Source of the DNA: a bacterium
GTDB taxonomy: Bacteria > Elusimicrobiota > JBDRMW01 > JBDROU01
Direction of reading: 5' to 3'
Length of the DNA: 64,000 nt
NCBI GenBank assembly: GCA_043809745.1
Contig: JBDROU010000046.1
Coordinates: 1,733 to 65,732 of the forward strand
Shown here: positions 975 through 31,503 of the stretch, piece by piece
How positions within the stretch are numbered: the first letter of the stretch is position 1
Layout of the letters: every line of letters begins with the position of its first letter
The notes under the pieces: model-generated
Told to the model about the DNA's origin: nothing
The model's database searches: none
Seen by the model: only the letters and a program-made list of their open reading frames with translations
Position numbers and translations under genes: made by a program

Positions 975-1406
975 TTACTCATAAATTGCATCTAAATTTA
1001 TTAAAAATATATTTATTTCCTTACCACCCTTTGAGCTGACACTCTGCCATTCTAGAATTATTCTATCTATATCGCCCGATTTTGAATTGCTTTTTTTCTC
1101 AAGTCCAAAATCCGAAAAAATATTCCTTAATTCCGTCGTGCTATACTGAGGAAATTCGCTCGCGTATTTTTGACTGTAAATCTTTTTTCTGCCTGAGTGA
1201 ATTCCATCACTATTAATTCCCCCATTTGGAATCAATTCAATTCTATCTGAATTAGCACTAAATGAATTCTTTACAGTATTATTGCCGGATGGTGGCGCAA
1301 GAAAAAAATAAAAGCTGGCAAAGCAGTACATGGAGAAATTAGAAAATGATATCAAAGCACTTATCAACAAAATAATCTCGAAGTATTTCATATTTTTATC
1401 ATACAT
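975..1406 (-). CDS. Small secreted hypothetical protein (143 aa, or 138 aa from the internal ATG at 1391)
   Basis: ORF carries a hydrophobic signal peptide 'MKYFEIILLISALISFSNFSMYCFA' followed by 'SFYFFLAPPSGNN'. A weak AGGGAA lies before the ATG at 1406. No family recognised. Confidence 0.45.
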   Translation of the reverse strand: MYDKNMKYFEIILLISALISFSNFSMYCFASFYFFLAPPSGNNTVKNSFSANSDRIELIPNGGINSDGIHSGRKKIYSQKYASEFPQYSTTELRNIFSDFGLEKKSNSKSGDIDRIILEWQSVSSKGGKEINIFLINLDAIYE

Positions 1407-1546: not shown

Positions 1547-4468
1547 CTACAGAGATTGCTCAAAAAGGCGGCTACCGGAGCGAAAATTTGGGTTTTGAGG
1601 CGAAGCCAAGTTTTGCTCGGGAATAAATGGAGGAAGCACCCCATATTCGGCAAGTACCCGCAATACCTCGGCAATGCTCCAGGCCTGAGATCTCGTTCCG
1701 CCCGGCCGATGTGGAGCATTTCCATCAAAAACCTCAGGTAGCGATGATGCGTAAAAAGTCATTAAAAATTCTATAAGTGGTGTCATTTCTGTTTGAATGC
1801 TTTTTGTAATATTTCGGCGATCGACACTTTGATTAATTTGCACTTTAGCAAATGCATCAATATACGCACCCATTAGCCATGGCCATACCGTACCCTGATG
1901 GTAAGCTTTGTCTTTTATTTCAGGTCTTCGTTTAATATCATATTTCCCTTTATAATGTGAATCCCGGGGAGACAATGTTCGCAATCCATATGGCGTAAGC
2001 AAATCCTTTTGCACACATTCAAGCACTTTCTTTTGCCGTTCAGGACTCAGTAAGCTTCCTCCATGGCTTACTGCGAATATCATATTAGGACGTATCGCCC
2101 CTGAATGTTTGTCACGGTTATTTTTAACCGGTACAAAATCATACAGCGCCTGTTCATTCTCATTCCAGAATTTCTTATTAAAGGAATCTTTCACCTTCAA
2201 TGCAAGTATTTCATACTCCTCTACTTGTTTCTTATCACCTATAGTATCCTCAAGAAATGCAAGAAGCTTAAGATTGGCAAACCAGAGAGCATTAATTTCG
2301 ACACATTTTCCGTCGCGCGGAGTTACAGGATTATCATCCCCCCGGGGATCGGCATCCATCCATGTAGCCTGCGGGGGGCTTACGATGAGTCCGTCTTCAT
2401 CCATATAAATTCGCTGCTGTACACCATAACGCTCATATGCCGTACCCAGTTTGTAATGTCTCATAATATTTCTCATTGCATCAAAGAGTGTCTTGCCTTC
2501 ATCAATTTCTACGGTTAAAAAAGTTGTATCTCCGGGATTATACTCCATATATTTTTTTACCGCTTGAATGAACCAGAGGGAGCCATCAACCGTATTATAT
2601 TCATTCCTCTCCGGATGAGCAGGATCCGGTATTCTGTTAGGGATAATGCCGTTTTGCTCATACCGGGCGAAACGGTATATAATATCCTTTGCAACTTTAA
2701 AACGACTGGTTGCAAGCAGTATTCCCGGAAGTGATATAAATACATCCCTCCCCCACTCTTCAAAAAACCAATCCCAGCTTGCGGCCCACAGCTCCGGACT
2801 GCCATCAGTTTTATAGTTTACAAAAGTATCCGCAGCGTCAAGTAGAGTCTGACTGATAGCATCAGACGCCTGCCAGACATCTCCCTCATCAATAGCTTTT
2901 TGAGCAGCTAGGTAATTAGTAGCATCATACCGGACTCTGTTATGATAATCAGCATCTCTCTCCAAAGGAACTCTCCATTGCCAGTAGGATTTTCCGTCTT
3001 TTACATCTTTTACATTAAAGGGATCCCCCCACTGATCACCCAAGGTAAAGCTGATAAAGCGAGCGCTTTCCCCCGGGAACTTCTGCGAGTGCACATCACG
3101 AAATCTCTTCTTAAAGGCAACCACCGGGTGCTTAGCACCATTGTAGAAGCGGGGATCATCATGGTAACTCAGATGCTTCCAGTCACCCCCAACCGTTAAA
3201 AAACCTTGCTTCTGAACGATGCCAGATTTATTTTCATACGCTTCCGCAAGCGGTAACGCCCCATATTCTTCGGCAAGTGCCGCTAATGCAGCTACGAAAT
3301 CGTCACCTGGCTCATCGCCCGGTTTATCCCCCACATAACGTTTTCCGAAAAACGAGTACGCAAAATGCATCGCATCACACCGCATCCCGTCAAATCCCAT
3401 CGCCAGCCAGTACCGTACCTGATTCAAAATAAATGCATAATTATCTTTTTTGAGCTCTTTCCAGTTCCAACTCGCTAAATCCTGCCAAACCTCTACAATA
3501 TCGTCCCGCTCAATTCCCGGATGGCTATCACCATCAGCACCATTCAGAAAGTTTTGAGGATTCTTCCATACATCAACGCTGTGTTTGCACCGAAAGAAAG
3601 GCAAATCAAATAATACGTGACCTCTTAACTGTTTCGTTTCTTTCAGAGCAGATTGCAGCTGCTGAGAGGCAACCCACTGCTTATACTTGTACATCCAGCA
3701 CAATTCATCAAATGAAGAATCGCGTTTCGCCTGCGCTATTATTCCCTCAGTCCACTTATTTGCAGGTATAAAGGTATGATCTTTCAGGTTGACTAAACTA
3801 TCAATCGCCTTGAACTCAGCATATTCCTCAATCCAGAATTTGTTCTCTTCAACGTATGTCATAAACTCTGTATAGCGAGCATTATCCGTATAAAAAACAT
3901 TTTTAAATCTTTTGGATGCTAGTTTTGCAATTATGCCTTCTCTTGTCTCAATTTCACGGTAGTGAACTGATTGCTGTTCAGCATTTTGAGCGAAGAGTAA
4001 TTCCCTTAATGCATTATTTTCAAGTAATAGCTGCTTGACCTCGGGTATCTCAGACCAGTCAATATATAATTCATTTAAGGCATACATACTAATAGGAGCG
4101 TAAGGGCTTTCGTCAGATATGGCAAAATGTGGCAGCAGTAAAATAGTGTCTACACCCTGCGGTAAAAGCACCTCTCTATAATAACGCGGAAAATCCGTAA
4201 ATTTACCAATACCGGGATCATTACCCTCTTTGCGAAGCGAGTAGAGCGGCAGACTTACCGCAAGGTGATTTTTTGAGGGATCCTGCCACCAACGCTGATT
4301 ATTAACGGATGAGCTGGGAACTGACTGCATAAAAATATGTGCGCTATGCTTTAATACGGTATCACGCGCTCCCGCAGGCGCAAGCAAATTTCCCGCAGAA
4401 ATCCCGAGAGGATTAATAAGGCAAAGAAGAATAAGCAGTAAAAATGGTGTTTTAATTCTATTAAGCAT
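1547..4468 (-). CDS. Secreted bifunctional alpha-glucan debranching-type enzyme: N-terminal GH77 4-alpha-glucanotransferase (amylomaltase) domain fused to a C-terminal GH133/GDE_C amylo-alpha-1,6-glucosidase-like domain
   Basis: 973 aa with signal peptide 'MLNRIKTPFLLLILLCLINPLGISA'. GH77 hallmarks: 'LLLPHFAISDESPYAPISMYALNELYID' (the SPY...ALN.LYID amylomaltase motif), 'HVLFDLPFFRCKHSVDVWKNP' (cf. GDLPIYVA.DSADVW) and 'MRCDAMHF'. C-terminal ~400 aa 'WFFEEWGRDVFISLPGILLATSRFKVAKDIIYRFARYEQNGIIPN...NTVDGSLWFIQAV' matches the GDE_C (glycogen debranching enzyme C-terminal, GH133) pattern. Confidence 0.8.
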   Translation of the reverse strand: MLNRIKTPFLLLILLCLINPLGISAGNLLAPAGARDTVLKHSAHIFMQSVPSSSVNNQRWWQDPSKNHLAVSLPLYSLRKEGNDPGIGKFTDFPRYYREVLLPQGVDTILLLPHFAISDESPYAPISMYALNELYIDWSEIPEVKQLLLENNALRELLFAQNAEQQSVHYREIETREGIIAKLASKRFKNVFYTDNARYTEFMTYVEENKFWIEEYAEFKAIDSLVNLKDHTFIPANKWTEGIIAQAKRDSSFDELCWMYKYKQWVASQQLQSALKETKQLRGHVLFDLPFFRCKHSVDVWKNPQNFLNGADGDSHPGIERDDIVEVWQDLASWNWKELKKDNYAFILNQVRYWLAMGFDGMRCDAMHFAYSFFGKRYVGDKPGDEPGDDFVAALAALAEEYGALPLAEAYENKSGIVQKQGFLTVGGDWKHLSYHDDPRFYNGAKHPVVAFKKRFRDVHSQKFPGESARFISFTLGDQWGDPFNVKDVKDGKSYWQWRVPLERDADYHNRVRYDATNYLAAQKAIDEGDVWQASDAISQTLLDAADTFVNYKTDGSPELWAASWDWFFEEWGRDVFISLPGILLATSRFKVAKDIIYRFARYEQNGIIPNRIPDPAHPERNEYNTVDGSLWFIQAVKKYMEYNPGDTTFLTVEIDEGKTLFDAMRNIMRHYKLGTAYERYGVQQRIYMDEDGLIVSPPQATWMDADPRGDDNPVTPRDGKCVEINALWFANLKLLAFLEDTIGDKKQVEEYEILALKVKDSFNKKFWNENEQALYDFVPVKNNRDKHSGAIRPNMIFAVSHGGSLLSPERQKKVLECVQKDLLTPYGLRTLSPRDSHYKGKYDIKRRPEIKDKAYHQGTVWPWLMGAYIDAFAKVQINQSVDRRNITKSIQTEMTPLIEFLMTFYASSLPEVFDGNAPHRPGGTRSQAWSIAEVLRVLAEYGVLPPFIPEQNLASPQNPNFRSGSRLFEQSL

Positions 4469-4513
4469 AATTATAAAAAGTCTTCTAAATCTAAATCAGA
4501 ATATATATAAATA

Positions 4514-4540
4514 ATTATAGTTTTTTTATATTAAATGCAA
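4514..4540 (-). promoter_or_regulatory. Candidate sigma70-type promoter for the minus-strand GH77/GH133 gene (TTGCAT-N15-TATAAT)
   Basis: On the minus strand TTGCAT (revcomp of 4535-4540) and TATAAT (revcomp of 4514-4519) lie ~45 nt upstream of the ATG at 4468. The region is AT-rich, so chance matches are likely. Confidence 0.3.
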
Positions 4541-4654
4541 GTAAAATAATTGTAAATTTTTTCAAATATTTTAATCCGGAGATTGCTCATCGGACTACTG
4601 CTTTTTGAGAGAACTCTAATCAGAGATTTTGACATAATGTGCCTTAAAAAACAT

Positions 4655-4684
4655 TTGACTTATGATAGAATATTTTGTATAAAT
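4655..4684 (+). promoter_or_regulatory. Candidate sigma70 promoter of the T2SS operon: TTGACT-N17-TATAAAT
   Basis: TTGACT at 4655-4660, exact 17-nt spacer, TATAAA(T) at 4678-4684. It sits ~80 nt upstream of the first operon gene in the divergent intergenic region. Confidence 0.45.
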
Positions 4685-4690
4685 ATAGCC

Positions 4691-4710
4691 AGCTCTCTAC
4701 TCAGAGAGCT
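4691..4710. promoter_or_regulatory. Perfect 8-bp-arm palindrome AGCTCTCT-actc-AGAGAGCT just downstream of the -10 element; candidate operator or 5'-leader hairpin
   Basis: Seen directly in sequence. It lies between the predicted promoter and the small MerR-like HTH gene. Confidence 0.3.
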
Positions 4711-4764
4711 AATCTAAAATTAATTAATATATTTTATAGATAATTTGCACTTGCAGGAGGTAAA

Positions 4765-4983
4765 TTGAAGCAGTATTTTCTTGTAAAAGATCTGGCCAGA
4801 ACCACTGGGAACTCGGTTTATACCATTAAATATTATTACAAGCTCGGTCTTCTTAATGAGATAGGCCGGACTCCGCATACCAATTTCAAGATATTTGATT
4901 CCAAAGCAGTTTCCCAATTAAAAAAAATACGAGCTTTAAGGAAAAAAGGAAGATCACTGCAAGTGATCAAAAAACTATTATGA
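4765..4983 (+). CDS. Small MerR-family HTH protein (HTH only, 72 aa), first gene of the T2SS operon
   Basis: TTG start 5 nt after AGGAGG. 'LVKDLARTTGNSVYTIKYYYKLGLL' is a MerR/excisionase-type helix-turn-helix. Its stop overlaps the next gene as ATGA (4980), suggesting translational coupling. Confidence 0.55.
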   Translation: MKQYFLVKDLARTTGNSVYTIKYYYKLGLLNEIGRTPHTNFKIFDSKAVSQLKKIRALRKKGRSLQVIKKLL

Positions 4984-5807
4984 GCTATTTCAAAGCCTTG
5001 GGCCTGGAAAAAGAGCCGTTTTCAACAAGCCCGGACCCTGAATTTTTTTATAAATCCAAAGATCACCAATCAGCGCTTTCGCGCCTGGAGATTGCAATCA
5101 GGCTTAAACGCGGACTCAATTTAATACTTGGTGACGTAGGCACCGGTAAAACCACGCTGGGCAGGATACTCGTACAGCGTTTTAACAAGGAAGGTAATTT
5201 CATTTTTCATTTAATGCTTGATCCCGGGCACAAATCAGAATATTTATTCCTTCAAAATGTCTGCAAAATGTTTGGCATTAAAGGAAACTTAAGATCGAGC
5301 ATAGATTTTCAGGATGCCATAAAGGATTATCTGTTCGAAAAAGGAGTCAAGGAAAAGAAAACAATAGTACTGCTTATAGATGAGGGCCAGAAACTTTCAC
5401 TCCCCCTTCTCGAGATACTGCGCATATTTCTTAATTATGAAACCAATGAGTACAAACTTCTGCAATTGGTTATATTGGCCCAGCTTGAGATAATCCCAAA
5501 AGTAGAAAGGGTGAAGAATTTTAATGACAGAATAAATCTTAAATACAGCATAAATCCGTTCGATGAATCAGAAACTGCAGAGATGATATATTATAGGCTT
5601 AAAAAAGCAGGTTATAAAGGAAACTCACCATTATTTGAAAAAGATGCTGTACAATCAATCTATAATCACACCAAAGGCTATCCCAGACAGATTTCATTGC
5701 TCTGCCACAACTGCCTTGAATATCTGGTAATGCACGATAAATCATCCGTATCAAAGGATTTGGTAAAAATATTAATCGATGAGGATAGAAAAATTAATGG
5801 CAAATAA
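4980..5807 (+). CDS. gspA: Type II secretion ATPase-like protein ExeA/GspA (AAA_22 family)
   Basis: Walker A 'GDVGTGKTTL' and Walker B 'VLLIDEGQ'. The N-terminus 'FGL..EPF....DP.FFY.S..H..AL..L' is typical of ExeA/GspA. Position at the head of a gsp operon supports the call. Confidence 0.7.
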   Translation: MSYFKALGLEKEPFSTSPDPEFFYKSKDHQSALSRLEIAIRLKRGLNLILGDVGTGKTTLGRILVQRFNKEGNFIFHLMLDPGHKSEYLFLQNVCKMFGIKGNLRSSIDFQDAIKDYLFEKGVKEKKTIVLLIDEGQKLSLPLLEILRIFLNYETNEYKLLQLVILAQLEIIPKVERVKNFNDRINLKYSINPFDESETAEMIYYRLKKAGYKGNSPLFEKDAVQSIYNHTKGYPRQISLLCHNCLEYLVMHDKSSVSKDLVKILIDEDRKINGK

Positions 5808-6465
5808 ACCTTCCCCTGAAGAGAAGCTGCTTAATTTAATAAGAGGCAAAAATAGCAAAAAGGTCATATTTTCACATATTGGATCAATATCCATATCATT
5901 ATTAAATACATTAAAATCCAAATTTGCTCCTGTATTAAACAAAATTAAAAGTGCGAGCAATAGATTTTCATTAAAACTAAAAAACCGATTATTATTTTAT
6001 GTTAACCGGCTGCTTACAGCGATTGTATGCATACTACTCATTATAATGGCTCTAAACATATTCTCTACACCTCAAAATATAAGACTTCTTAAAAACATAG
6101 AGAATGAAGAAAGCGTCAAATCAGCAAAAAACACAGTTCAAACTGTTGAATCAAAACCTTTTCCTTATTACTTAAGCAGAATCAGCGGCAGGAAACTATT
6201 CAAGATATACAAAGCAAAACCTGAAATAAAAAAAATCGAGAAAAAAGAAAACCCGGTCCTGCTTGAGCTTACAAATGGTTTATTTTTAAGCGGTATAATC
6301 TCTGACGGCAGCAGATTACAGGCAGTTATAACAGATCAAAAACGGAACCAGACATATTTTCTTTATGACGGAGATTATATAGGTGAAATAAAAATTGAAA
6401 ATATTCTACAAAATGAAGTAGTTGTCAGCTATAGAGGCGAGACCACATCCATTAATATGCGCTAA
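5779..6465 (+). CDS. gspC: GspC/PilP-like inner-membrane protein: single TM plus a C-terminal HR (secretin-interacting) domain, no PDZ
   Basis: TM segment 'LLTAIVCILLIIMALNIF'. C-terminus 'LFLSGIISDGSRLQAVITDQ...YFLYDGDYIGEIKIENILQNEVVVSYRGETTSINM' fits the GspC HR / PilP beta-sandwich pattern. It lies immediately upstream of the secretin gene, as gspC normally does. Confidence 0.5.
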   Translation: MRIEKLMANKPSPEEKLLNLIRGKNSKKVIFSHIGSISISLLNTLKSKFAPVLNKIKSASNRFSLKLKNRLLFYVNRLLTAIVCILLIIMALNIFSTPQNIRLLKNIENEESVKSAKNTVQTVESKPFPYYLSRISGRKLFKIYKAKPEIKKIEKKENPVLLELTNGLFLSGIISDGSRLQAVITDQKRNQTYFLYDGDYIGEIKIENILQNEVVVSYRGETTSINMR

Positions 6466-6476
6466 GGAGGCAGAAT

Positions 6477-7916: not shown

Positions 7917-7936
7917 TTAAACGACTGGAGAAAACA

Positions 7937-9652: not shown

Positions 9653-10860
9653 CAACATTTTATTATAAAGCTAAAACAAAATCACATGAGCTTGTTGAAG
9701 GTTTCATTGAAGCCGCCAGCAGGCGACTGGCTATTTTAGATTTGGATTCAAAAGGGTTAATCCCCTTTAGTCTTACGGAAGAAGTTGTTAAGGATAACAA
9801 TTCAGGAATTAAAATAAGTCTATTTCGGCGAATCTCATCCCAGGAGATCACAATATTTACCCGTCAATTATCAGATTTATTATACGGCGGGGTACCAATT
9901 GTAAAAGCATTGATAATTCTTAATAACCAGTTAAGCAATAAAAAGTTTAAGAATATAACTGAAGAGATCGTGAAAAGCGTACAGGAAGGCGAAAGTTTTT
10001 CAAACAGCTTAAAGCATTATCCTGAATTATTTTCAGGATTTTTTATAAGCCTGGTGAAATCAGGCGAGATGAGCGGCAGATTAAATGAGATATTGGCCAG
10101 AATAGCAGATTTCAGGGAGAAGGAAGAGGAAGTAAAATTAAAGCTTAGCTCAGCTTTGACATACCCGGTTTTAATTTTACTTGTAGGCACATTAAGCATC
10201 GTATTCCTTCTGTCGGTAGTTATACCCAGAATAGTATCAATGTTTAACGAGATGGGACAGCTGCTGCCGCTGCCGACCCAAATATTGGTTGCAGTAAGCC
10301 GCTTATTCACTAATTACTGGTGGGCTGTAATACTTCTTATCGTATTTACAGCGCTGTCTATGCACAGAATACTGAAAACTGAAAAAGGAAAAACAGCAAT
10401 AAGCAGCTTCATACTGCATATACCCTTTTGGGGAAATCTTATAAAAAAAATTGAGATAACACGTTTTTCGGGTACTCTGGCCATGCTTCTCGAAAGCGGG
10501 GTTCCTGTGCTTTCTTCCGTACACCTTGTTAAGGGCGTACTAACAAATGAAACAATCAGGCGTGAATCAGACAGAATTTACAATTCAATAATACAGGGGT
10601 CATCGCTTTCAAAGAGCTTAAAAGAAAGCACAGTTTTCCCCGCTTCAGTGGTGGATATGATAGCGGTAGGCGAGGAAAGCAATATACTCGGCAGCACATT
10701 GGCAAAGATCGCAGCTTCTTGCGAAAAGGAATCCGACAGAACAATCAAAAAAGGTTTAACTATGCTCGAACCCGTAACCATACTCGTTATGGGATTGGTA
10801 ATCGGATTTATTGTAGTAGCTATGCTGCTGCCGATATTTCAGATGAATGTTATGAGGTAA
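9649..10860 (+). CDS. gspF: Type II secretion inner-membrane platform protein GspF
   Basis: 403 aa with two T2SSF repeats and three TM segments. Start overlaps the gspE stop. Confidence 0.9.
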   Translation: MTTFYYKAKTKSHELVEGFIEAASRRLAILDLDSKGLIPFSLTEEVVKDNNSGIKISLFRRISSQEITIFTRQLSDLLYGGVPIVKALIILNNQLSNKKFKNITEEIVKSVQEGESFSNSLKHYPELFSGFFISLVKSGEMSGRLNEILARIADFREKEEEVKLKLSSALTYPVLILLVGTLSIVFLLSVVIPRIVSMFNEMGQLLPLPTQILVAVSRLFTNYWWAVILLIVFTALSMHRILKTEKGKTAISSFILHIPFWGNLIKKIEITRFSGTLAMLLESGVPVLSSVHLVKGVLTNETIRRESDRIYNSIIQGSSLSKSLKESTVFPASVVDMIAVGEESNILGSTLAKIAASCEKESDRTIKKGLTMLEPVTILVMGLVIGFIVVAMLLPIFQMNVMR

Positions 10861-10895
10861 GTAAATATTTAGAGCTAATAATAGGAGGCTTCAAA

Positions 10896-11333
10896 ATGAA
10901 AAGAATTAAAACAAACAAAGGCTTTACCCTTATAGAATTAATGCTTGTTGTTGTTATACTCGGAATATTAGTTACTATGGTTATACCCAGATTGGTCGGC
11001 AGAAGCAAGGAAGCCCGGATATCAGCAGCTAAAGCAGATATCGAAGCCAACATAGCCATAGCCCTGGATTTGTATGAACTTGATAACGGGAACTACCCCT
11101 CAACAGAACAGGGATTGGAAGCACTCAGAATAAAACCTGAATCCCCTCCGCTTCCAAAAAAATGGAAAGGCCCTTATATAAAAAAGAAAGTCCCTGTAGA
11201 TCCATGGGGCAACAAGTATGTATACCAATGCCCGGGCTCGCATAATAAGGAAGATTATGATCTTTACTCACTGGGGGCTGACGGCGTAGAAGGCGGCGGG
11301 GATGATATCTCTAATTGGGAGCAGGAAGAATAA
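10896..11333 (+). CDS. gspG: Major pseudopilin GspG
   Basis: RBS AGGAGG before the ATG at 10896. Prepilin leader 'MKRIKTNKG|FTLIELMLVVVILGIL' (Gly-1, Glu+5). C-terminus 'DPWGNKYVYQCPGSHNKEDYDLYSLGADGVEGGGDDISNWE' is the GspG signature. The track ORF 10719..11333 is an in-frame N-terminal over-extension into gspF. Confidence 0.9.
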   Translation: MKRIKTNKGFTLIELMLVVVILGILVTMVIPRLVGRSKEARISAAKADIEANIAIALDLYELDNGNYPSTEQGLEALRIKPESPPLPKKWKGPYIKKKVPVDPWGNKYVYQCPGSHNKEDYDLYSLGADGVEGGGDDISNWEQEE

Positions 11334-11334
11334 T

Positions 11335-11811
11335 ATGCGGTTCAGAATTAAAGGTTTTACATTAATTGAGCTTATTATAGTCATATTAATACTCGCTGTA
11401 ATGAGCTCAATATCTATACCGCTGTTTAAGAGCTGGTACGGCTCAGCAAGTACCGAAGATACAGCATCAAGAATAACAGCACTGCTTAATTATGCCCATC
11501 AAAAAGCATTATTAGAGCGCAAATCAATAAGGTTCAATATAGATACAGCCAGCAGGAATTACTGGCTTACATATAAAGATAAATCTACCGGCAAATTCAG
11601 CAAAGAAAAAGGAAAACACAGCCGCGTTTTCTCATACTCAGATAAATTAACCGTTATTAGTAAAAACAGTTATTACGATTTCACAAAATACGGTGATCAT
11701 GATCTAATTAATATTAAAGTGTCCATTAACCAAAATAATGGTTTCGAGATACTTAGCAACGGCCGTTTCGAAACTGTTAAAGCCTTGCCGTTACAAGAAG
11801 AATCTGTATGA
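11335..11811 (+). CDS. gspH: Minor pseudopilin, GspH-like
   Basis: Prepilin N-terminus 'MRFRIKG|FTLIELIIVILILAV'. About 158 aa, placed after gspG. Confidence 0.6.
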   Translation: MRFRIKGFTLIELIIVILILAVMSSISIPLFKSWYGSASTEDTASRITALLNYAHQKALLERKSIRFNIDTASRNYWLTYKDKSTGKFSKEKGKHSRVFSYSDKLTVISKNSYYDFTKYGDHDLINIKVSINQNNGFEILSNGRFETVKALPLQEESV

Positions 11812-12182
11812 TGAAAAGCAAAGAAAAAGGGTTTTCGCTAATAGAAGTACTGGTTACACTGGTAGTTCTCTCTGTGGGTTTGGTTTATATAATTGGGTCT
11901 TTAAGGACATCTATTTACTCGGTTAAAGTATCAAAAGATTATTACGCTTCTTATCTTTTGCTCGAAAATAAAATGTGGGAGCTTAATGCTGAAGGCTCTT
12001 TTAGCATAGGAACAGAAGAATATTCATGCGATGAGGAAGATCCAATTGACTGTTCTTACAAGGCTGAAATTACCGAACCAAACGGCGAAATACTCAGTCA
12101 TCTGGTGCTTAAGCTAATTGATAAGCAAGAAAAAGAAATTTCCAGCTTAGAAACACTGGTAATCCTAAATGAGGATTTATGA
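11808..12182 (+). CDS. gspI: Minor pseudopilin, GspI-like
   Basis: 'MMKSKEKG|FSLIEVLVTLVV'. 124 aa, typical GspI size. ATGA overlap with gspH. Confidence 0.6.
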   Translation: MMKSKEKGFSLIEVLVTLVVLSVGLVYIIGSLRTSIYSVKVSKDYYASYLLLENKMWELNAEGSFSIGTEEYSCDEEDPIDCSYKAEITEPNGEILSHLVLKLIDKQEKEISSLETLVILNEDL

Positions 12183-12787
12183 TCTTAAATCAAATTGAAT
12201 CAGAAAATACTCAAAAGGCCTTTACTCTTATTGAGCTTCTCATTGCTTTATCCATATTTTCAATTGCGGCTGTGACAATTATTTCAGTATTTCAGAAGGG
12301 CCTGCTTGCCTGGAAGAAAGGCAGCAGTATAATAAGCTTAAACCAAAAAACAAGGGCTTTCTCAGAATTATTTTCAAGGGAATTAAGAAATATTAGGACT
12401 TTCTCCCCCATTAAGTTTTCCGGCGAAACAAGCAGCATCTCTTTCCCCAACCTTTCAACTGATAAAACTAAAGGTTGCTTCAACAAAACTACCTATTACT
12501 TTGATTCTATGAACAAAACAATAGTAAGGAACACAAAGAGTTTAAGTGATATATATCTAAATAATACGGGATCGGATGAACCTATGTTGACAGATGTTGA
12601 GGAATTTAAGTTGGAATACGCATATTCAAGCGCAGATCAAGGCCTTTCATGGAAAGAACTTTGGGACGCGGAAGACTCCGTCCCCAAAGGCCTTAAGATA
12701 CACTTAAAACTCCTGGATAATGAAAACAAAGAAGAAGTTTTCTCAAGATTTATATATATACCTGCAGGATATTCGCCACAAGGATGA
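12179..12787 (+). CDS. gspJ: Minor pseudopilin, GspJ-like
   Basis: '...TQKA|FTLIELLIALSIFSIAAV'. 202 aa. ATGA overlap with the previous gene. Confidence 0.55.
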   Translation: MILNQIESENTQKAFTLIELLIALSIFSIAAVTIISVFQKGLLAWKKGSSIISLNQKTRAFSELFSRELRNIRTFSPIKFSGETSSISFPNLSTDKTKGCFNKTTYYFDSMNKTIVRNTKSLSDIYLNNTGSDEPMLTDVEEFKLEYAYSSADQGLSWKELWDAEDSVPKGLKIHLKLLDNENKEEVFSRFIYIPAGYSPQG

Positions 12788-12790
12788 GAA

Positions 12791-13762
12791 ATGAATGCAA
12801 AAAATAAGGGATCAATATTAATATTAACACTCTGGATAATGGCAATTCTGTCTCTGCTGGCTATTAATATTGCAGGCAGTATGAGCTATGAACTGTATAT
12901 TACAGGAAGATTTATAGATTCAATAAAATCTTTTCAAATCCTCCAGGCAGGCATCAGAAAAGCAGCATTGCTAACTAGAATTGATGATGATACCGCAGAC
13001 AGCCTGAAGGATATATGGAGCAACAACCCTAAAGAATTTAAAAAAATACAGGTTGGGGAAGGTTATTTAACAATATCCAGGAAAAATAGCGGCGAAACAG
13101 AAGACATAGTTTACGGTTTGATTGATGAATCTAGAAAATTAAATATTAATACAGCATCTAAGGAAATTCTCAAGTCCGTAGATGGTCTGGAAGAGATTCA
13201 TGTTCATTCAATTATTGACTGGCGCGATGAGGATGATTTGTCGCTCCCAATGGGAGCTGAGAACTCTTACTATGAATCGTTACCCAATCCGTATAAGTGC
13301 AAGAATTCGCCCTTTGAAAGCCTGGATGAACTTCTTCTGGTAAGAGGATTTTCTCCTGAACTACTATCAAAAGTAAAAGACAAATTAACGGTTTTCAGTA
13401 GCGGACAGATCAATATAAACACCTGCACATTCGAAACATTGAAATCTATCGGGCTGGATGATAACACCATCCAGATAGTAATAGACTACAGGAATGGCAA
13501 TGACGCCGAAGAAGGCACCGAAGACGACAGGATATTCACTAATCCAAAATTAATACTGAGCGAACTCTTAACCGAGTATCAGCTCAGCGAAGGCGAATCT
13601 GCGCAGATTACGGGTATAATTGATAAAAATATATTATGCGCTAACACTGAATATTTTCAAATGAACATCGAAGTGGAGTTAAACAAAGAAATAACCAATA
13701 ACGCATATATAATATTTAACAGGAAAAACGGCGAGATAGTATATTGGGACGAGGAATATTAA
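12791..13762 (+). CDS. gspK: Minor pseudopilin GspK-like (no Glu+5)
   Basis: 'MNAKNKGSILILTLWIMAILSLLAI' lacks the Glu+5 residue, as is characteristic of GspK. 323 aa with helix-hairpin-helix-like repeats 'LDELLLVRGFSPELLSKV'. Confidence 0.6.
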   Translation: MNAKNKGSILILTLWIMAILSLLAINIAGSMSYELYITGRFIDSIKSFQILQAGIRKAALLTRIDDDTADSLKDIWSNNPKEFKKIQVGEGYLTISRKNSGETEDIVYGLIDESRKLNINTASKEILKSVDGLEEIHVHSIIDWRDEDDLSLPMGAENSYYESLPNPYKCKNSPFESLDELLLVRGFSPELLSKVKDKLTVFSSGQININTCTFETLKSIGLDDNTIQIVIDYRNGNDAEEGTEDDRIFTNPKLILSELLTEYQLSEGESAQITGIIDKNILCANTEYFQMNIEVELNKEITNNAYIIFNRKNGEIVYWDEEY

Positions 13763-15205
13763 ATGTTTCTAGGCAAATTTATTAAACCAAAAGGCACCAT
13801 AATTTCTAACATAATAGAATTCGAAGAGCACAGCATCCGACTTATTCAGTATTCCGAATCCAATGGAAAGAAGAATATACTGGGGATTTTTGAAGAGAAG
13901 GTTGATCCGGAATTAAATGAAGATTTATCAGTTAAGGTTTCTAAGCTTATAAGCAGAGCCGATTCCAAAGTGCAAGATGCCGGAATAATTATACCCAGGA
14001 GCCTAATTGCTGTTAAATATTTTACTTTCCCTTCTATCGATCCCGAAGAATTAATGGAGATGGTAAACCTTCAGCTTATTAAGGATATGCCAATCTCACA
14101 AAATGATATAAAAAGCGATTATACTGTAATATCACAAAATGGTTCAAATTCATTTGTTGAAGTATTCGCCGTGCAAAGATCGGTAACAGATCAATTTTGC
14201 AGTATATTAAAAGAAAACGACGTGCAGCCTAAATTCTGCACTGTAAGTTCATACGCGCTTTTTAGTCTAATAAAGCATTTTTATACAGAAAAGCTGGAAG
14301 ACAAAAAAATAATTGGATTAATTTATAAAAGCGTTCATAACATTGATTTTTTAATATTCAACAGCCGCGAACTGTTATTCAGCCGCAGTTTCTCATACGA
14401 AAACCAGTTAATGAACACAGATGTAACGCTCAAATTTATAAGCGACTCAATTGCATATTTCAAGAAAAAGATCACTAATAATAATTTTGATAAAATATTC
14501 ATTCTCAACGAATTAAATAAAGACGATGAGATGCATAACTCAATAAGGTTTCAATTGAACATACCAATAGATGAGCTTAACATAAAGGAACTCGCTTCAC
14601 ATTTCGTACAAACCGGGAATAAAGTCTTAGAGTTTGACGCTAAAACAGCAAAATTTGCAGGTTTGCTATTAACCGAAGATATTCATCTTGATTTCCTTAA
14701 AAGAGAGAGCCGCGCAAGGAAGGTATCGCTTTCAGTAAAAAAAGAAATTATCAAATTCATTGTATTATGCAGTTCTTCCTTAATACTCATACTGCTTATC
14801 ATCTTCTCCTGGTTCTGGAAGCAGAATCGATATCTAAATGCTCTTGAGAGCAAAATTAATTTGACTCAGCCGCTCTCTGACAGATTAAATTCCATGCGGT
14901 CAAAATCATCTATAATAAATAAATACTTAAACAGAAATAACTCAAGCATAGAGGTCCTGGCAGAAATATTTCACATGATTCCTAAAAGCGTAAATCTTTC
15001 AGGTTTTATGTACAACAGCGAAAACGAGCTTACTCTGCAGGGGACTTCTGCTAATATGTCAGATGTATTTAAGCTTGTATCTATCCTGGAAAAATCGAAA
15101 CAATTTGAAAAGGTGGAACTGAGATACGCAAGCAAAAGAGAGTTAACTGCAAAAACAATAACAGATTTTCAGATATTCTGTCATTTTGTGCCAAATGAGA
15201 GTTGA
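13763..15205 (+). CDS. gspL: GspL-like bitopic assembly protein (cytoplasmic actin-like domain, TM, periplasmic domain)
   Basis: 480 aa with a single TM 'IIKFIVLCSSSLILILLIIFSWFW' near residue 330. The gene-order position is that of gspL. Confidence 0.5.
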   Translation: MFLGKFIKPKGTIISNIIEFEEHSIRLIQYSESNGKKNILGIFEEKVDPELNEDLSVKVSKLISRADSKVQDAGIIIPRSLIAVKYFTFPSIDPEELMEMVNLQLIKDMPISQNDIKSDYTVISQNGSNSFVEVFAVQRSVTDQFCSILKENDVQPKFCTVSSYALFSLIKHFYTEKLEDKKIIGLIYKSVHNIDFLIFNSRELLFSRSFSYENQLMNTDVTLKFISDSIAYFKKKITNNNFDKIFILNELNKDDEMHNSIRFQLNIPIDELNIKELASHFVQTGNKVLEFDAKTAKFAGLLLTEDIHLDFLKRESRARKVSLSVKKEIIKFIVLCSSSLILILLIIFSWFWKQNRYLNALESKINLTQPLSDRLNSMRSKSSIINKYLNRNNSSIEVLAEIFHMIPKSVNLSGFMYNSENELTLQGTSANMSDVFKLVSILEKSKQFEKVELRYASKRELTAKTITDFQIFCHFVPNES

Positions 15206-15741
15206 ATATGATTATTAAACACCTATCAAAAAGAGAAAGAATATTGTTCTATATAACTTTGTTATTTATAGTTGGCGTGCTGTTTAACTTTTTAATTATT
15301 TCCCCTTTAGCAAACCTTAAAGAGAAGCTTTCTTTTGAAATTATCAGAAAAGAAATTGCTTTAAAGAAGAATATGTCAGTTATTAGCAAAAAAAAAGAAA
15401 TTCAAGAAAATTACAATATTCTTTCTAATTTCATAAAGAAGCAAGGCTCAGATGAAGAAGAATCGGCAAACTTGCTCAAAGAAATTGAAACTCTGGCCAG
15501 CAAATCAAAAATTTCACTTATTAATATAAAACCCAAGCCGCCAAAAGAAATGGAATTCTACAAAATATATTCAGTGGAAATAGAAGGCGAGGGTTACCTT
15601 GAACAGCTCGTAAGATTCATTTACAATCTTGAGCAATCAAAGCAATTACTCAAGGCCGAAAAGTTAAACATTTCCGTAAAGAGCAGCTCCTCCTCCACAC
15701 TCAAATTCTCCCTCCTAGTGGGGACGTTGTTTACAGATTGA
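15202..15741 (+). CDS. gspM: GspM/PilO-like protein
   Basis: 179 aa with N-terminal TM 'ILFYITLLFIVGVLFNFLIISPL' and a coiled-coil. Last gene of the operon; start overlaps the gspL stop. Confidence 0.45.
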   Translation: MNMIIKHLSKRERILFYITLLFIVGVLFNFLIISPLANLKEKLSFEIIRKEIALKKNMSVISKKKEIQENYNILSNFIKKQGSDEEESANLLKEIETLASKSKISLINIKPKPPKEMEFYKIYSVEIEGEGYLEQLVRFIYNLEQSKQLLKAEKLNISVKSSSSSTLKFSLLVGTLFTD

Positions 15742-15875: not shown

Positions 15876-15937
15876 AAAATATTTTACAATAACTTTACAG
15901 CGAATTTTACATACTTGTGGTATACTTAATTAGGCCT

Positions 15938-23932: not shown

Positions 23933-23934
23933 AA

Positions 23935-25284: not shown

Positions 25285-25290
25285 TTAATA

Positions 25291-26376: not shown

Positions 26377-26423
26377 AATAAACCTCTTGTCAAACTATAT
26401 ATTATTTTCGGCCTAAATAATTA

Positions 26424-29299: not shown

Positions 29300-29315
29300 G
29301 CCTTTAATAAGTTCT

Positions 29316-31040: not shown

Positions 31041-31067
31041 ATTTTCCTCGTCCCCATCTTAAATTAA

Positions 31068-31385: not shown

Positions 31386-31467
31386 AATTCTTTTTATGAA
31401 CAATAACTTAATAAAGTAAAAAACTATTAATATATGCGGTGGAATAAAGGTAGATGTGCAAATCGTA

Positions 31468-31503
31468 GGGTGGGCGTCCCGCCGAGTAAAGACGCCCACT
31501 CCT
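31468..31503 (-). promoter_or_regulatory. GC-rich hairpin in the rsmH-ftsL intergenic region: GTGGGCGTC-(12 nt)-GACGCCCAC, extendable to 12 bp with one bulge
   Basis: 9 of 9 perfect complementarity, at 31470-31478 and 31491-31499. GC-rich stem in an AT-rich genome. No U-tract follows on the transcribed strand. Confidence 0.4.

What the first reader, a model, noticed from the sequence alone, without database searches (positions are those of the whole stretch)
1547..15741. pulA-like arrangement: T2SS operon divergent from a secreted GH77+GH133 debranching-type enzyme
The complete gsp operon (4765-15741, plus strand) is transcribed divergently from a signal-peptide-bearing 4-alpha-glucanotransferase/amylo-1,6-glucosidase fusion (1547-4468, minus strand) and two small secreted proteins. 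This mirrors the Klebsiella pulA / pulC-O paradigm, where the T2SS sits divergent to its starch-debranching cargo. The cargo here is unusual: a GH77 amylomaltase domain fused to a GDE_C (GH133) domain and exported. That resembles a eukaryote-like transferase-plus-glucosidase debranching logic built from different families.
Basis: partly seen in the sequence, partly recalled or inferred. Interest (0 to 1): 0.6.

Follow-up and report, generated by a model that had tools for sequence, protein, structure and literature searches.

The report
Exported two-domain glycogen-debranching enzyme beside T2SS
A bacterium from an uncultured lineage encodes an exported enzyme that joins a chain-transferring domain to a branch-stub-removing domain, the two-step logic animals and fungi use to debranch glycogen; the enzyme family is real and uncharacterised, but its position next to a secretion machine is unique to this genome.

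Summary
ORF 1547-4468 (-) encodes a 973-aa protein with a signal peptide, a GH77-fold domain and a complete GDE_C/GH133 domain. It lies head-to-head, across a 296-bp AT-rich gap, with a MerR-gspA-C-D-E-F-G-H-I-J-K-L-M operon (4765-15741, +).

The glucosidase half keeps all three residues shown by mutagenesis to be needed in yeast or human GDE (D575, D705, E912). The transferase half keeps the nucleophile (D365) and probably the acid/base (E409). Its sequence diverges from GH77 after the nucleophile, although the predicted fold matches whole amylomaltases.

The GH77-like + GDE_C cassette is a conserved, uncharacterised unit in Elusimicrobiota and Omnitrophota. Most complete stand-alone members carry a signal peptide, so export is a family trait.

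The "pulA-like" linkage is not conserved. None of about 60 loci carrying the cassette has a gsp operon nearby, and none of 80 related T2SS loci has the cassette. Relatives instead pair the enzyme with a giant S8-protease/HEAT protein or with GH13 amylases.

Unexpectedly, the only four LAP[PA] motifs in the window all sit just after the N-terminal hydrophobic stretch of the four genes flanking the T2SS operon. T2SS cargo status is plausible but unproven.

The parts
1547..4468 (-). 973-aa exported GH77-like + GDE_C (GH133) enzyme. Signal peptide residues 1-24; disordered 25-56; GH77-fold (beta/alpha)8 domain about 57-540; (alpha/alpha)6 GDE_C domain 545-940; disordered tail 951-973.
   Evidence: Pfam; NCBIfam; AlphaFold2 model with pLDDT 82.5 and pTM 0.82; Foldseek against PDB gives GH77 amylomaltases at TMt 0.67-0.72 and eukaryotic GDE. 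Candidate catalytic residues are D365, E409 and D478 in the transferase half and D575, D705 and E912 in the glucosidase half.
4469..4764 (.). 296-bp AT-rich divergent intergenic region. It holds a 10-bp-stem palindrome at 4689-4712 and a TG-extended promoter-like site at 4644-4671.
   Evidence: Sequence. The consensus scan found no more sites than in shuffled sequence, so these are leads only.
4765..4983 (+). MerR-family regulator, first gene of the gsp operon (TTG start behind an AGGAGG site).
   Evidence: PF13411, 3e-11. The MerR-GspA-GspC-GspD block is conserved in most of the 80 related loci.
4980..5807 (+). GspA/ExeA-like AAA_22 ATPase.
   Evidence: PF13401, 2e-15. TIGR03015 at 172.7 bits, below its cut-off of 324.5. 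Relatives are 55-73% identical.
5779..6465 (+). GspC-like protein (weak match).
   Evidence: PF11356 E=0.0016 and TIGR01713 E=2.8e-4, both below their cut-offs. Its position is conserved in relatives.
6477..7916 (+). Secretin GspD (short, 479 aa; STN/N0, one Secretin_N domain, then the secretin domain).
   Evidence: PF00263, 2.7e-48. TIGR02517 at 247 bits, below its cut-off of 351. Relatives are in Elusimicrobia and Omnitrophota.
7937..9652 (+). GspE ATPase with an MshEN-type c-di-GMP-binding N-domain.
   Evidence: PF00437, 2e-136; PF05157. TIGR02533 at 609 bits (cut-off 630); NF053729 at 56 bits, above its cut-off of 38.
9649..10860 (+). GspF platform protein.
   Evidence: PF00482, 1.6e-57. 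TIGR02120 at 374 bits, below its cut-off of 424.
10896..11333 (+). Major pseudopilin GspG (start taken at MKRIKTNKGFTLIEL).
   Evidence: PF08334, 1e-36. TIGR01710 at 169.8 bits, above its equivalog cut-off of 88.85.
11302..13762 (+). Four minor pseudopilin genes in H, I, J, K order (11302-11811, 11808-12182, 12179-12787, 12791-13762).
   Evidence: N_methyl motif in the first three; weak T2SSJ in the third; T2SSK_1st at 3.5e-15 in the fourth.
13763..15741 (+). GspL-like (PilM/PilN-type, 13763-15205) and GspM (15202-15741).
   Evidence: PF05137, PF04350 and PF10741. NF040576 GspM at 43 bits, below its cut-off of 60.
15917..17029 (+). Orphan 370-aa ORF directly after gspM. Either it is signal-peptide-bearing, or (NCBI's call, 338 aa) it starts at MLAPPHS. 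It carries the LAPP motif.
   Evidence: No Pfam or NCBIfam hit. Only itself was found among 5.8 billion proteins. Alternative starts are visible in the sequence.
975..1406 (-). 143-aa ORF downstream of the enzyme gene, with a hydrophobic N-terminus followed by FFLAPPSG.
   Evidence: ORF list. No Pfam hit. No relatives in the fetched loci. Motif scan.
3..677 (-). 5' part (225 aa) of a gene cut by the window edge. It has a strong AAGGAGG site, the N-terminus MRKRIFCLLCIVGLLCGDLSTRVFGGNIFLAPPIS, and a weak GlpX-type FBPase region at residues 124-172.

Best explanation
The 973-aa protein is a Sec-exported, bifunctional alpha-glucan debranching enzyme.

- Domains. An N-terminal GH77-fold 4-alpha-glucanotransferase domain is rigidly joined to a C-terminal GH133 amylo-alpha-1,6-glucosidase domain.
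- Inferred mechanism. On glycogen, starch or amylase-limit dextrins outside the cytoplasm, the transferase half moves the alpha-1,4 stub of a short branch onto another chain end. The glucosidase half then hydrolyses the single alpha-1,6-linked glucose that remains. This is the 'indirect' two-step route of animal and fungal GDE, built here with a GH77-like transferase instead of a GH13_25 one.
- Family. It belongs to an uncharacterised GH77-like + GDE_C cassette family spread through Elusimicrobiota and Omnitrophota. In its stand-alone form the family is typically exported, and it often sits with exported GH13 amylases, sugar ABC transporters or a giant S8-protease/HEAT protein.
- Local context. 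In this genome alone it lies head-to-head with the T2SS operon. That makes it a plausible T2SS cargo, but the coupling is local.

What is shown: domain identity, fold, conservation of key residues, conservation of the signal peptide, and lack of conserved synteny with the T2SS.
What is inferred: substrate, the two-step mechanism, final location (periplasm or outside), and use of the T2SS.
For: Domain identity and fold:
- Pfam and NCBIfam assign both domains.
- The model has pLDDT 82.5 and pTM 0.82.
- Foldseek puts whole GH77 amylomaltases on top (E about 1e-16, TMt 0.67-0.72 over about 530 columns). It also gives collinear matches to C. glabrata and human GDE.

Glucosidase residues:
- D705 aligns with human D1261 in the TWMD motif, and E912 with human E1502 in LPE (mutagenesis in PMC12219210).
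- D575 aligns with CgGDE D1078 in WGRD (PMC4837477).
- D575, D705 and E912 are each conserved in at least 90% of 46 family members.

Transferase residues:
- D365 aligns with the Thermus 'RIDH' motif, whose Asp I take from memory to be the nucleophile D293.
- GFDGMRCD and LPLAEA align with the TreS stretches GIDGFRLD and VLLAEA. I identify these from memory as the GH13 nucleophile and acid/base regions.
- R363, D365, E409 and D478 are invariant in the family.

Export:
- 38 of 57 homologues have an N-terminus that passes a simple signal-peptide-like test; nearly all the rest are fragments or larger fusions.
- Neighbouring GH13a, S8-HEAT and unknown proteins in relatives also start with signal peptides.
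- The window holds separate, signal-less GH57 glycogen genes for the cytoplasm.

Alpha-glucan context in relatives: GH13 with Glucodextran_C, and SBP/ABC transporters.

T2SS: the operon is present and the organism looks diderm (lipid A acyltransferase).
Against: - No biochemical data exist for any family member. No paper describing this fusion was found.
- Sequence similarity to GH77 stops at the nucleophile.
- The third catalytic Asp is assigned only from predicted topology and invariance. It is preceded by Gly rather than the usual His.
- NCBIfam equivalog cut-offs are not reached for either half.
- GDE_C-fold enzymes are related to trehalases and mannosylglycerate hydrolases, so the specificity could differ.
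- In Omnitrophota and Goldiibacteriota the same cassette sits inside 2.5-7.6 kaa proteins alongside domain types usually cytoplasmic (phosphorylase-like, HD, cytidylate-kinase-like). The cassette is therefore not intrinsically extracellular.
- T2SS linkage is absent from all relatives examined.
Confidence: 0.6

Rival explanations
1. The enzyme is a dedicated cargo of the adjacent T2SS, a true Pul-like module. The enzyme, the two downstream genes and the ORF after gspM would be co-regulated from the divergent region and secreted to the surface or the medium, possibly recognised through the shared post-signal LAP[PA] segment.
For: - The genes are head-to-head 296 bp apart, and the enzyme has a Sec signal peptide.
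- All four LAP[PA] occurrences in the six-frame translation of the window fall 28-36 residues from the N-termini of the four genes flanking the operon. At least 8 other signal-bearing proteins in the window lack the motif.
- The left-edge ORF and the 143-aa ORF share nothing beyond the motif in a pairwise comparison.
- Low-GC orthologues have similar post-signal segments: P0184 TLAAPLEG and P0204 CLAPHSS.
- Related T2SS loci are often flanked by very large exported carbohydrate-active proteins.
Against: - The adjacency is not conserved: 0 of about 60 cassette loci and 0 of 80 T2SS loci.
- The motif does not follow signal peptides in the flanks of 84 related T2SS loci.
- For orf370 the annotated start is the Met of MLAPP itself, so it may have no signal peptide.
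- From general knowledge, no linear T2SS targeting signal has been established in any system.
- There are only four sequences, all from one genome.
Confidence: 0.3
2. The enzyme is exported but stays in the periplasm, processing imported maltodextrins or limit dextrins. Its place next to the T2SS operon is an accident of a local rearrangement.
For: - The signal peptide is conserved but the T2SS linkage is not.
- The gsp gene order in the window differs from most relatives, which implies a rearrangement at exactly this junction.
- Relatives place the enzyme with SBP-dependent sugar ABC transporters.
- No T9SS C-terminal domain (no such Pfam hit) and no canonical lipobox (read directly from the sequence).
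Against: - A branched polymer substrate such as glycogen is unlikely to enter the periplasm intact.
- In Elusimicrobia the long Ala/Pro-rich linkers after the signal peptide suggest tethered, surface-exposed proteins.
- The clustering of the LAP[PA] motif around the T2SS is left unexplained.
Confidence: 0.35
3. The protein is cytoplasmic. The annotated start would be wrong, or the hydrophobic N-terminus is not a signal peptide, and the enzyme debranches the cell's own glycogen.
For: - GH77 and GH133 enzymes are normally cytoplasmic (general knowledge; PMC11046441).
- The Shine-Dalgarno site before the ATG at 4468 is weak.
- An internal Met47 exists.
- The cassette occurs inside giant proteins that carry domain types usually cytoplasmic.
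Against: - The signal-like N-terminus recurs in most complete stand-alone homologues from independent genomes.
- NCBI's gene call uses the same start.
- The cell has separate, signal-less GH57 branching-enzyme and glucanotransferase genes.
Confidence: 0.07
4. The two domains act on something other than glycogen or starch. Examples are another alpha-glucan or glucoside of prey or envelope origin, or synthesis of cyclic or remodelled glucans. The GH77-like half might also serve mainly as a binding module.
For: - The C-terminal half of the GH77-like domain is strongly diverged, and the conserved His before the third Asp is missing.
- There are weak hits to trehalase, MGH1-like and GH94 families.
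- The conserved partnership with a giant S8-protease/HEAT protein is not a classical starch-utilisation context.
Against: - Nucleophile and acid/base motifs are invariant across the family.
- GH133 catalytic residues are intact.
- GH13 amylase neighbours recur.
Confidence: 0.15

Closest known systems
Eukaryotic glycogen debranching enzyme (AGL/Gdb1; structures 5D06, 8ZEQ)
   Same: - One polypeptide with an N-terminal clan GH-H transferase barrel and a C-terminal GH133 (alpha/alpha)6 glucosidase.
- The residues equivalent to human D1261 and E1502 and to CgGDE D1078 are conserved (PMC4837477, PMC12219210).
- The structural match is collinear.
   Different: - The transferase half is GH77-like, not GH13_25.
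- The protein is about 970 aa against about 1530 aa, and lacks the M1/M2/central domains.
- It carries a signal peptide, whereas GDE is cytosolic.
- The GDE_C half is closer to the archaeal type (TIGR01561) than to the eukaryotic model.
Archaeal/bacterial stand-alone GDE_C proteins (TIGR01561 'gde_arch'; Sulfolobus GH133 'GlgX', PMC11046441)
   Same: - The C-domain is 45-52% identical to stand-alone GDE_C genes in Bathyarchaeia, Nitrososphaeria and CPR bacteria.
- The best NCBIfam model is gde_arch.
   Different: - Only the C-terminal part of the gde_arch profile (positions 254-567 of 569) is matched. The space where its N-terminal part would lie is taken by the GH77-like domain.
- From general knowledge, the stand-alone proteins are cytoplasmic and not fused to a transferase.
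- The score is below the family cut-off (260 against 364).
GH77 amylomaltases / disproportionating enzymes (MalQ, DPE1; 1CWY, 5CSU, 6M6T)
   Same: - Overall fold (TMt 0.67-0.72).
- The N-terminal 280 profile positions match, including the SPY region.
- The R-x-D nucleophile is present.
   Different: - After the nucleophile there is no detectable GH77 sequence similarity. The beta4-beta6 stretch aligns better with GH13 TreS.
- The candidate third Asp lies in a TLGD context without His.
- The protein is exported and fused to GH133.
Klebsiella pulA / pulC-O module
   Same: An alpha-glucan debranching-type enzyme gene lies divergent from a T2SS operon. PulA as a T2SS substrate, with maltose used for induction in the secretion assays: PMC10790770. 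The divergent pulA / pulC-O layout and MalT control are from my own knowledge.
   Different: - PulA is a GH13 pullulanase lipoprotein that debranches directly; this protein has no canonical lipobox (read directly from the sequence) and a different chemistry.
- The regulator here is a MerR-family gene inside the gsp operon, not MalT.
- The linkage is not conserved in any relative.
NCBIfam NF011083 'bifunctional glycogen debranching protein GlgX/4-alpha-glucanotransferase'
   Same: It is a bacterial fusion of a debranching activity with a GH77 transferase.
   Different: There the debranching half is GlgX, which from general knowledge is a GH13 direct debranching enzyme. Only the GH77 part gives a weak match (27.7 bits against a cut-off of 1322).

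Membership tests
GH77 (4-alpha-glucanotransferase) | Significant match to the family profile | tested here: met
   PF02446 at 113 bits against a gathering score of 25, but only profile positions 1-279 of 465. PDB GH77 sequences reach E=7.6e-20 with the family profile.
GH77 (4-alpha-glucanotransferase) | Complete GH77-type (beta/alpha)8 catalytic domain | tested here: met
   The predicted structure matches whole amylomaltases at TMt 0.67-0.72 and E about 1e-16 over about 530 columns. This rests on a model, not an experiment.
GH77 (4-alpha-glucanotransferase) | Catalytic nucleophile Asp in the R-x-D motif after beta4 | tested here: met
   D365 (GMRCD) aligns with the Thermus 'RIDH' motif, whose Asp is the nucleophile D293 by my recollection. 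It also aligns with the TreS GFRLD motif. It is invariant in 46 sequences.
GH77 (4-alpha-glucanotransferase) | Acid/base Glu after beta5 and transition-state Asp (His-Asp) after beta7 | tested here: inconclusive
   E409 (LPLAEA) aligns with the TreS VLLAEA motif at E about 0.002 and is invariant. The third Asp is assigned to invariant D478 (TLGD) from predicted strand order only, and the preceding His is replaced by Gly. H436-D437 aligns with the beta6 region of TreS.
GH77 (4-alpha-glucanotransferase) | NCBIfam equivalog score for 4-alpha-glucanotransferase | tested here: not met
   NF011081 at 125 bits against a cut-off of 556; TIGR00217 at 60 against 206.
GH133 / GDE_C (amylo-alpha-1,6-glucosidase) | Full-length match to the GDE_C profile | tested here: met
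   PF06202 at 355 bits, E=5.3e-106, profile positions 2-367 of 367.
GH133 / GDE_C (amylo-alpha-1,6-glucosidase) | Catalytic Asp and Glu (human D1261 and E1502; CgGDE D1241 and E1492) and the glucose-coordinating Asp (CgGDE D1078) | tested here: met
   D705, E912 and D575 align to these residues (residue roles from PMC12219210 and PMC4837477). Each is conserved in at least 90% of the family.
GH133 / GDE_C (amylo-alpha-1,6-glucosidase) | Hydrolysis of a single alpha-1,6-glucosyl stub | not testable with these tools
   This needs an enzyme assay.
Type II secretion system | Core set: secretin D, ATPase E, platform F, major pseudopilin G, minor pseudopilins H-K, L, M, C | tested here: met
   All are found in gsp order. 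GspG passes its equivalog cut-off. D, E, F and M have T2SS models as their best hit but score below the cut-offs, and C is weak.
Type II secretion system | Prepilin peptidase (GspO/PilD) | tested here: not met
   None was found among the window ORFs scanned with Pfam. A few ORFs between 57241 and 63951 were not scanned, and the gene may lie elsewhere in the genome.
Pul-like cargo/T2SS module | Cargo gene divergent from the gsp operon | tested here: met
   296-bp divergent intergenic region.
Pul-like cargo/T2SS module | Linkage of cargo and machine conserved in related genomes | tested here: not met
   0 of about 60 cassette loci have gsp genes next door. The only nearby hits are one GspE-like gene 9 kb away in L012 and one AAA_22 gene in L076. 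0 of 80 related T2SS loci have the cassette.
Pul-like cargo/T2SS module | T2SS-dependent secretion and co-regulation | not testable with these tools
   This needs fractionation in gsp mutants or a heterologous host, and transcript data.
Eukaryotic GDE (indirect debranching enzyme) | GH13_25 transferase domain plus GH133 domain in one cytosolic protein of about 170 kDa | tested here: not met
   The transferase half is GH77-like. TIGR01531 scores 135 bits against a cut-off of 1400. A signal peptide is present. The protein is an analogue, not a member.

The most novel reading that the evidence does not exclude
The short segment [LFM]-LAP-[PA], placed just after the N-terminal hydrophobic stretch, marks the enzyme and the three other genes flanking the gsp operon. 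Beyond this segment no similarity among them was seen. The segment would be a lineage-specific linear sorting signal that commits Sec-exported proteins to this T2SS (or to a surface-retention step coupled to it). The locus would then be a self-contained secretion module. Its main cargo would be an extracellular, convergently evolved 'eukaryote-style' glycogen debranching enzyme used to feed on other cells' glycogen.
Probability: 0.08. Interest if true: 0.85.

Novelty: new variant of a known kind. Interest (0 to 1): 0.5.

Why it matters
- Debranching routes. From general knowledge, bacteria are thought to debranch glycogen directly with GH13 GlgX or pullulanase, and the two-step transferase-plus-glucosidase route is treated as a eukaryotic speciality (with an archaeal TreX oddity, PMC11046441). 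A widespread, exported bacterial cassette that rebuilds this logic from GH77 + GH133 would add a third solution. It would be a convergent one, and it is directly testable with one recombinant protein.
- Extracellular use. From general knowledge, GH77 and GH133 enzymes are normally cytoplasmic. Export of both would show these chemistries being used outside the cell, which bears on how Elusimicrobiota and Omnitrophota feed, possibly on other cells' storage glucan.
- Mega-enzymes. The same cassette inside 2.5-7.6 kaa proteins with phosphorylase-like domains hints at single-polypeptide glycogen-degrading enzymes.
- T2SS claim. The adjacency is a single-genome coincidence until shown otherwise. The shared LAP[PA] segment is the only feature that could make it more, and it speaks to the long-open question of how T2SS substrates are recognised.

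Tried and rejected
- Conservation of the T2SS link, from the enzyme side. I examined 7 contigs by exact look-up and 75 GTDB loci, then ran tblastn with all window Gsp proteins. No gsp operon was found.
- Conservation of the T2SS link, from the T2SS side. I retrieved 80 metagenome loci with the GspA-like protein at 55-64% identity. None holds GH77-GDE_C, orf143 or orf370. The left-edge ORF query was out of frame, so it was repeated correctly; again there were no hits.
- Closest T2SS relatives. L087 and L088 share the window's gene order, but their contigs end at MerR, so the upstream side is unseen.
- Extending the GH77 alignment past the nucleophile. hhalign of the N-domain profile against a canonical MalQ stopped at column 284. 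hmmsearch against PDB stopped at the nucleophile. Only TreS (GH13) bridged beta4-beta6.
- H436-D437 as the His-Asp of conserved region IV. Rejected, because the TreS alignment and the predicted strand order place it after beta6.
- Lipoprotein reading (PulA-like). Rejected, because LILLC is not a canonical lipobox (read directly from the sequence).
- T9SS cargo reading. Rejected. The enzyme gives no CHU_C or other T9SS-signal Pfam hit, although the window does encode PorP/SprF and a CHU_C protein.
- Homologues of orf370. None exist other than itself.
- Rest of the source contig. The exact look-up found no record.
- AFDB fold search. The library was unavailable.
- Promoter and terminator scan. 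It found no more sites than in shuffles.
- Literature. No paper describing a GH77-GH133 fusion or an Elusimicrobia debranching enzyme was found.
- LAP[PA] after signal peptides in the flanks of related T2SS loci. Absent.

Full report
**1. What is in the sequence**

The minus-strand ORF 1547-4468 encodes 973 aa.
- Pfam places Glyco_hydro_77 on residues 73-365. The score is 113 bits against a cut-off of 25, but only profile positions 1-279 of 465 are matched.
- Pfam places GDE_C on residues 545-937, at 355 bits and covering the whole profile.
- The N-terminus MLNRIKTPFLLLILLCLINPLGISA|GN looks like a Sec signal peptide. LILLC is not a canonical lipobox (read directly from the sequence).

Across a 296-bp AT-rich gap the plus strand carries the secretion operon.
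- MerR: 4765-4983.
- A GspA/ExeA-like AAA_22 ATPase, then a weak GspC.
- A short secretin, then GspE with an MshEN c-di-GMP-binding domain, then GspF.
- GspG, four further pseudopilin genes including J-like and K, a PilM/N-type GspL and GspM, ending at 15741.
- GspG passes NCBI's equivalog cut-off. D, E, F and M have T2SS models as their best hit but score below the cut-offs.

The 'two small secreted proteins' need correcting.
- One is a 143-aa orphan (975-1406).
- The other (677 down to the window edge) is the first 225 aa of a longer gene. It has a strong Shine-Dalgarno site and a weak GlpX-like region.

**2. Are both halves real enzymes?**

An AlphaFold2 model built on 46 homologues is confident (pLDDT 82.5, pTM 0.82). 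Only residues 1-56 and 951-973 are disordered.

Foldseek against PDB puts complete GH77 amylomaltases first: DPE1, the S. agalactiae enzyme, Thermus and Aquifex. Their E-values are about 1e-16, with TMt 0.67-0.72 over about 530 columns. It also gives long collinear alignments to C. glabrata and human GDE. The N-terminal domain is thus a whole GH77-type barrel, not the half barrel the Pfam match suggested.

For the glucosidase half, the phmmer alignments give these equivalences:
- T702-W-M-D705 lies on human T1258-W-M-D1261.
- L910-P-E912 lies on human L1500-P-E1502.
- W572-G-R-D575 lies on CgGDE WGRD (D1078 in 5D06 numbering).

D1261 and E1502 (CgGDE D1241 and E1492) and D1078 are the residues whose mutation abolishes glucosidase activity (PMC12219210, PMC4837477). 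All three positions are conserved in at least 90% of the family.

For the transferase half:
- The family profile aligns GaRvD with the Thermus 'RIDH' motif, whose Asp I take from memory to be the nucleophile D293. D365 is therefore the nucleophile.
- GH77 sequence similarity ends at that point.
- The stretch 347-438 aligns, marginally (E about 0.002) but motif-for-motif, with GH13 trehalose synthase: GFDGMRCD with GIDGFRLD, LPLAEA with VLLAEA, and HLSYHDD with HMAFHFP. I identify the first two TreS motifs from memory as the GH13 nucleophile and acid/base regions.
- This supports E409 as the acid/base and shows that H436-D437 lies after beta6.
- The third carboxylate is then most likely the invariant D478 in TLGD, after predicted strand 470-475. 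No His precedes it. This last assignment is inference.

**3. The family**

The exact protein exists in NCBI as 'MAG: 4-alpha-glucanotransferase [bacterium]' on a 66-kb contig. The next relatives are only 43-48% identical, and nearly all are Elusimicrobia MAGs annotated '4-alpha-glucanotransferase' or 'glycogen debranching enzyme'.

Export looks like a family trait.
- 38 of 57 homologues have an N-terminus that passes a simple signal-peptide-like test; nearly all the rest are fragments or larger fusions.
- In the high-GC members the signal peptide is followed by about 100 residues of Ala/Pro-rich linker.

A full HMMER scan of 1.84 billion representatives with the N-domain alone found 50 clusters at E<=1e-30.
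- Many are 2.5-7.6 kaa proteins, named where a source gives a name as Omnitrophota. One (P0190) comes from a Goldiibacteriota MAG contig.
- In all five that I checked, the GH77-like domain is again followed by GDE_C.
- Some of them add a phosphorylase-like region or S8 peptidase plus HEAT repeats.
- L076, the Goldiibacteriota locus, adds cytidylate-kinase-like and HD domains.

GH77-like + GDE_C is therefore a conserved cassette reused in several architectures. The C-domain on its own is 45-52% identical to stand-alone GDE_C genes of Bathyarchaeia, Nitrososphaeria and CPR bacteria. Its best NCBIfam model is the archaeal type.

**4. Is the T2SS linkage meaningful?**

From the enzyme side, I examined seven contigs and 75 GTDB loci with tblastn of every window Gsp protein.
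- No gsp operon lies within 10 kb of the cassette.
- The only nearby hits are one GspE-like gene 9 kb away (L012) and one AAA_22 gene (L076).
- About 35 Elusimicrobia loci instead have a signal-bearing S8-peptidase/HEAT protein, 1733-2325 aa where gene calls are available, immediately upstream on the same strand.
- About a dozen have a GH13 / GH13+Glucodextran_C / two-unknown-genes cluster, sometimes with a sugar ABC transporter.
- Several of these neighbours start with signal peptides.

From the T2SS side, the secretin's relatives are Elusimicrobia and Omnitrophota.
- 80 metagenome loci of the same T2SS type (GspA-like protein 55-64% identical) contain no GH77-GDE_C.
- Most have the order gspE...M-MerR-gspA-C-D. 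The window's order, MerR-A-C-D-E...M, is shared only by L087, L088 and L130 among those seen.
- The junction with the enzyme gene is therefore a local rearrangement.
- Related T2SS operons do often neighbour very large exported proteins, some carrying carbohydrate-active domains. The general idea of cargo genes beside the machine is thus not foreign to these lineages.

**5. An unexpected feature**

I searched all six frames of the window (open stretches of at least 60 aa) for LAP[PA]. There are exactly four matches. All four fall 28-36 residues from the N-terminus, immediately after the hydrophobic stretch, of the four genes that flank the gsp operon:
- the enzyme: ...GISAGNLLAPAGARD
- the 143-aa ORF: ...CFASFYFFLAPPSGNN
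- the left-edge ORF: ...RVFGGNIFLAPPISQ
- the ORF after gspM: ...SWSRTMLAPPHSME

Points in favour of significance:
- At least eight other signal-bearing proteins in the window lack the motif.
- The left-edge ORF and the 143-aa ORF share nothing beyond the motif in a pairwise comparison.
- In 354,000 residues of open reading stretches from 84 related T2SS loci, the pattern occurs 9 times and never after a signal peptide.
- Two low-GC orthologues of the enzyme have similar post-signal segments: P0184 TLAAPLEG and P0204 CLAPHSS.

Caveats:
- There are only four sequences, all from one genome.
- For the ORF after gspM, NCBI's start is the Met of MLAPP itself, and a GGAG lies 7 nt upstream of it.

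I cannot explain the motif. It is the only evidence that ties the flanking genes to one another, and so perhaps to the T2SS.

**6. Most likely function**

The best-supported reading is an exported bifunctional debranching enzyme that works by the indirect route.
- The GH77-like half transfers the alpha-1,4 stub of a short branch.
- The GH133 half removes the remaining alpha-1,6 glucose.

The window separately encodes a signal-less GH57 branching enzyme and a GH57 amylase/glucanotransferase inside a PTS cluster. The cell's own glycogen therefore has its own enzymes, and the exported protein most likely acts on external glucan or dextrins.

Whether it ends up in the periplasm or is passed outward by the T2SS is open. 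I put about 0.3 on T2SS cargo, 0.35 on periplasmic, and under 0.1 on cytoplasmic.

**7. Comparison with known systems, and novelty**

- It works like eukaryotic GDE but is not a member of that family. The transferase family differs, the accessory domains are missing, and it is exported.
- It passes the tests for GH133.
- It is a divergent GH77-like member of clan GH-H.
- It resembles the Klebsiella pulA/pulC-O layout only in gene orientation.
- No paper describing this fusion was found.
- The 2024 review of prokaryotic alpha-glucan enzymes mentions GH133 only as a stand-alone archaeal enzyme.

I rate it a new variant of a known kind, of moderate interest. Most of the interest lies in the enzyme family rather than in the T2SS adjacency.

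Noticed in passing
window 590, 1301, 4384 (- strand) and 16016 (+ strand): The only four LAP[PA] motifs in the six-frame translation of the 64-kb window all lie 28-36 residues from the N-terminus, right after the hydrophobic stretch, of the four genes flanking the gsp operon. Beyond the motif no similarity among them was seen (only one pair was compared directly). Eight other signal-bearing proteins in the window lack the motif, and it is absent after signal peptides in 84 related T2SS loci.
   Followed up: partly
L001, L006, L007, L010, L013-L014, L016-L019, L021-L030, L035, L037, L039, L043, L047, L050-L053 (upstream of position 10001): In about 35 Elusimicrobia genomes the GH77-GDE_C gene is immediately preceded, on the same strand, by a signal-bearing Peptidase_S8 + HEAT_2 protein (1733-2325 aa where gene calls are available). 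P0183 (2686 aa) and P0041 carry the S8, HEAT, GH77 and GDE_C domains in one polypeptide. The function of this conserved pairing is unknown.
   Followed up: partly
P0182, P0186, P0187, P0190, P0192, P0196, P0199, P0201, P0220; L076:20-16570: The GH77-like + GDE_C cassette is embedded in proteins of 2.5-7.6 kaa, mostly from Omnitrophota and one (P0190) from a Goldiibacteriota MAG contig. Some also have a glycogen-phosphorylase-like region (P0182, P0186). L076, the Goldiibacteriota locus, has cytidylate-kinase-like and HD domains. These may be single-polypeptide glycogen-degrading mega-enzymes.
   Followed up: partly
window 50568-52688 and 52699-54453 (- strand): A GH57 amylase/4-alpha-glucanotransferase (706 aa) and a GH57 branching enzyme (584 aa), both without a signal peptide. 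They sit inside a mannose-type PTS / EI / HPr-kinase / RapZ cluster (47068-57247). This is a GH57-based cytoplasmic glycogen gene pair, separate from the exported enzyme.
   Followed up: partly
window 35846-42053 (- strand): A PorP/SprF-like protein, a protein with a CHU_C type IX secretion signal domain, a 251-aa signal-bearing protein, and a 1047-aa GH2_C/GH72-like protein. These are T9SS-type components and possible cargo in the same window. A similar GH2_C/GH72 + F5_F8 protein follows the T2SS secretin in Elusimicrobia locus L086.
   Followed up: no
window 7937-9652 (+ strand): The T2SS ATPase GspE carries an N-terminal MshEN-type cyclic-di-GMP-binding domain (NF053729, 56 bits against a cut-off of 38). 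This suggests c-di-GMP control of secretion.
   Followed up: no
window 3-677 (- strand): This gene is cut by the window edge. It has a strong AAGGAGG site and a signal-like N-terminus, then about 100 residues later a weak match to GlpX-type fructose-1,6-bisphosphatase (29.8 bits against a cut-off of 27, residues 124-172). From general knowledge that enzyme family is cytoplasmic, so a signal peptide on it would be odd.
   Followed up: partly
window 4689-4712: A 10-bp-stem palindrome (CCAGCTCTCTACTCAGAGAGCTAA) lies between a TG-extended promoter-like site (4644-4671) and the MerR start codon (4765). It could be an operator or a 5'-UTR hairpin for the gsp operon.
   Followed up: no
L089-L168 compared with window 4765-15741: In most related loci the gene order is gspE-F-G-...-L-M followed by MerR-gspA-C-D on the same strand. 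The window, L087, L088 and L130 instead have MerR-gspA-C-D first. The MerR-gspA-gspC-gspD block behaves as a mobile sub-operon within this T2SS type.
   Followed up: partly
window 33305-33760 and 34970-35043 (- strand): RNase P RNA (bacterial class A, 202.6 bits) and tRNA-Val(CAC). These are ordinary housekeeping RNAs. The rest of the window (19965-32465) is a mraW-ftsI-murE-murF-mraY-murD-ftsW-murG cell-wall cluster.
   Followed up: no
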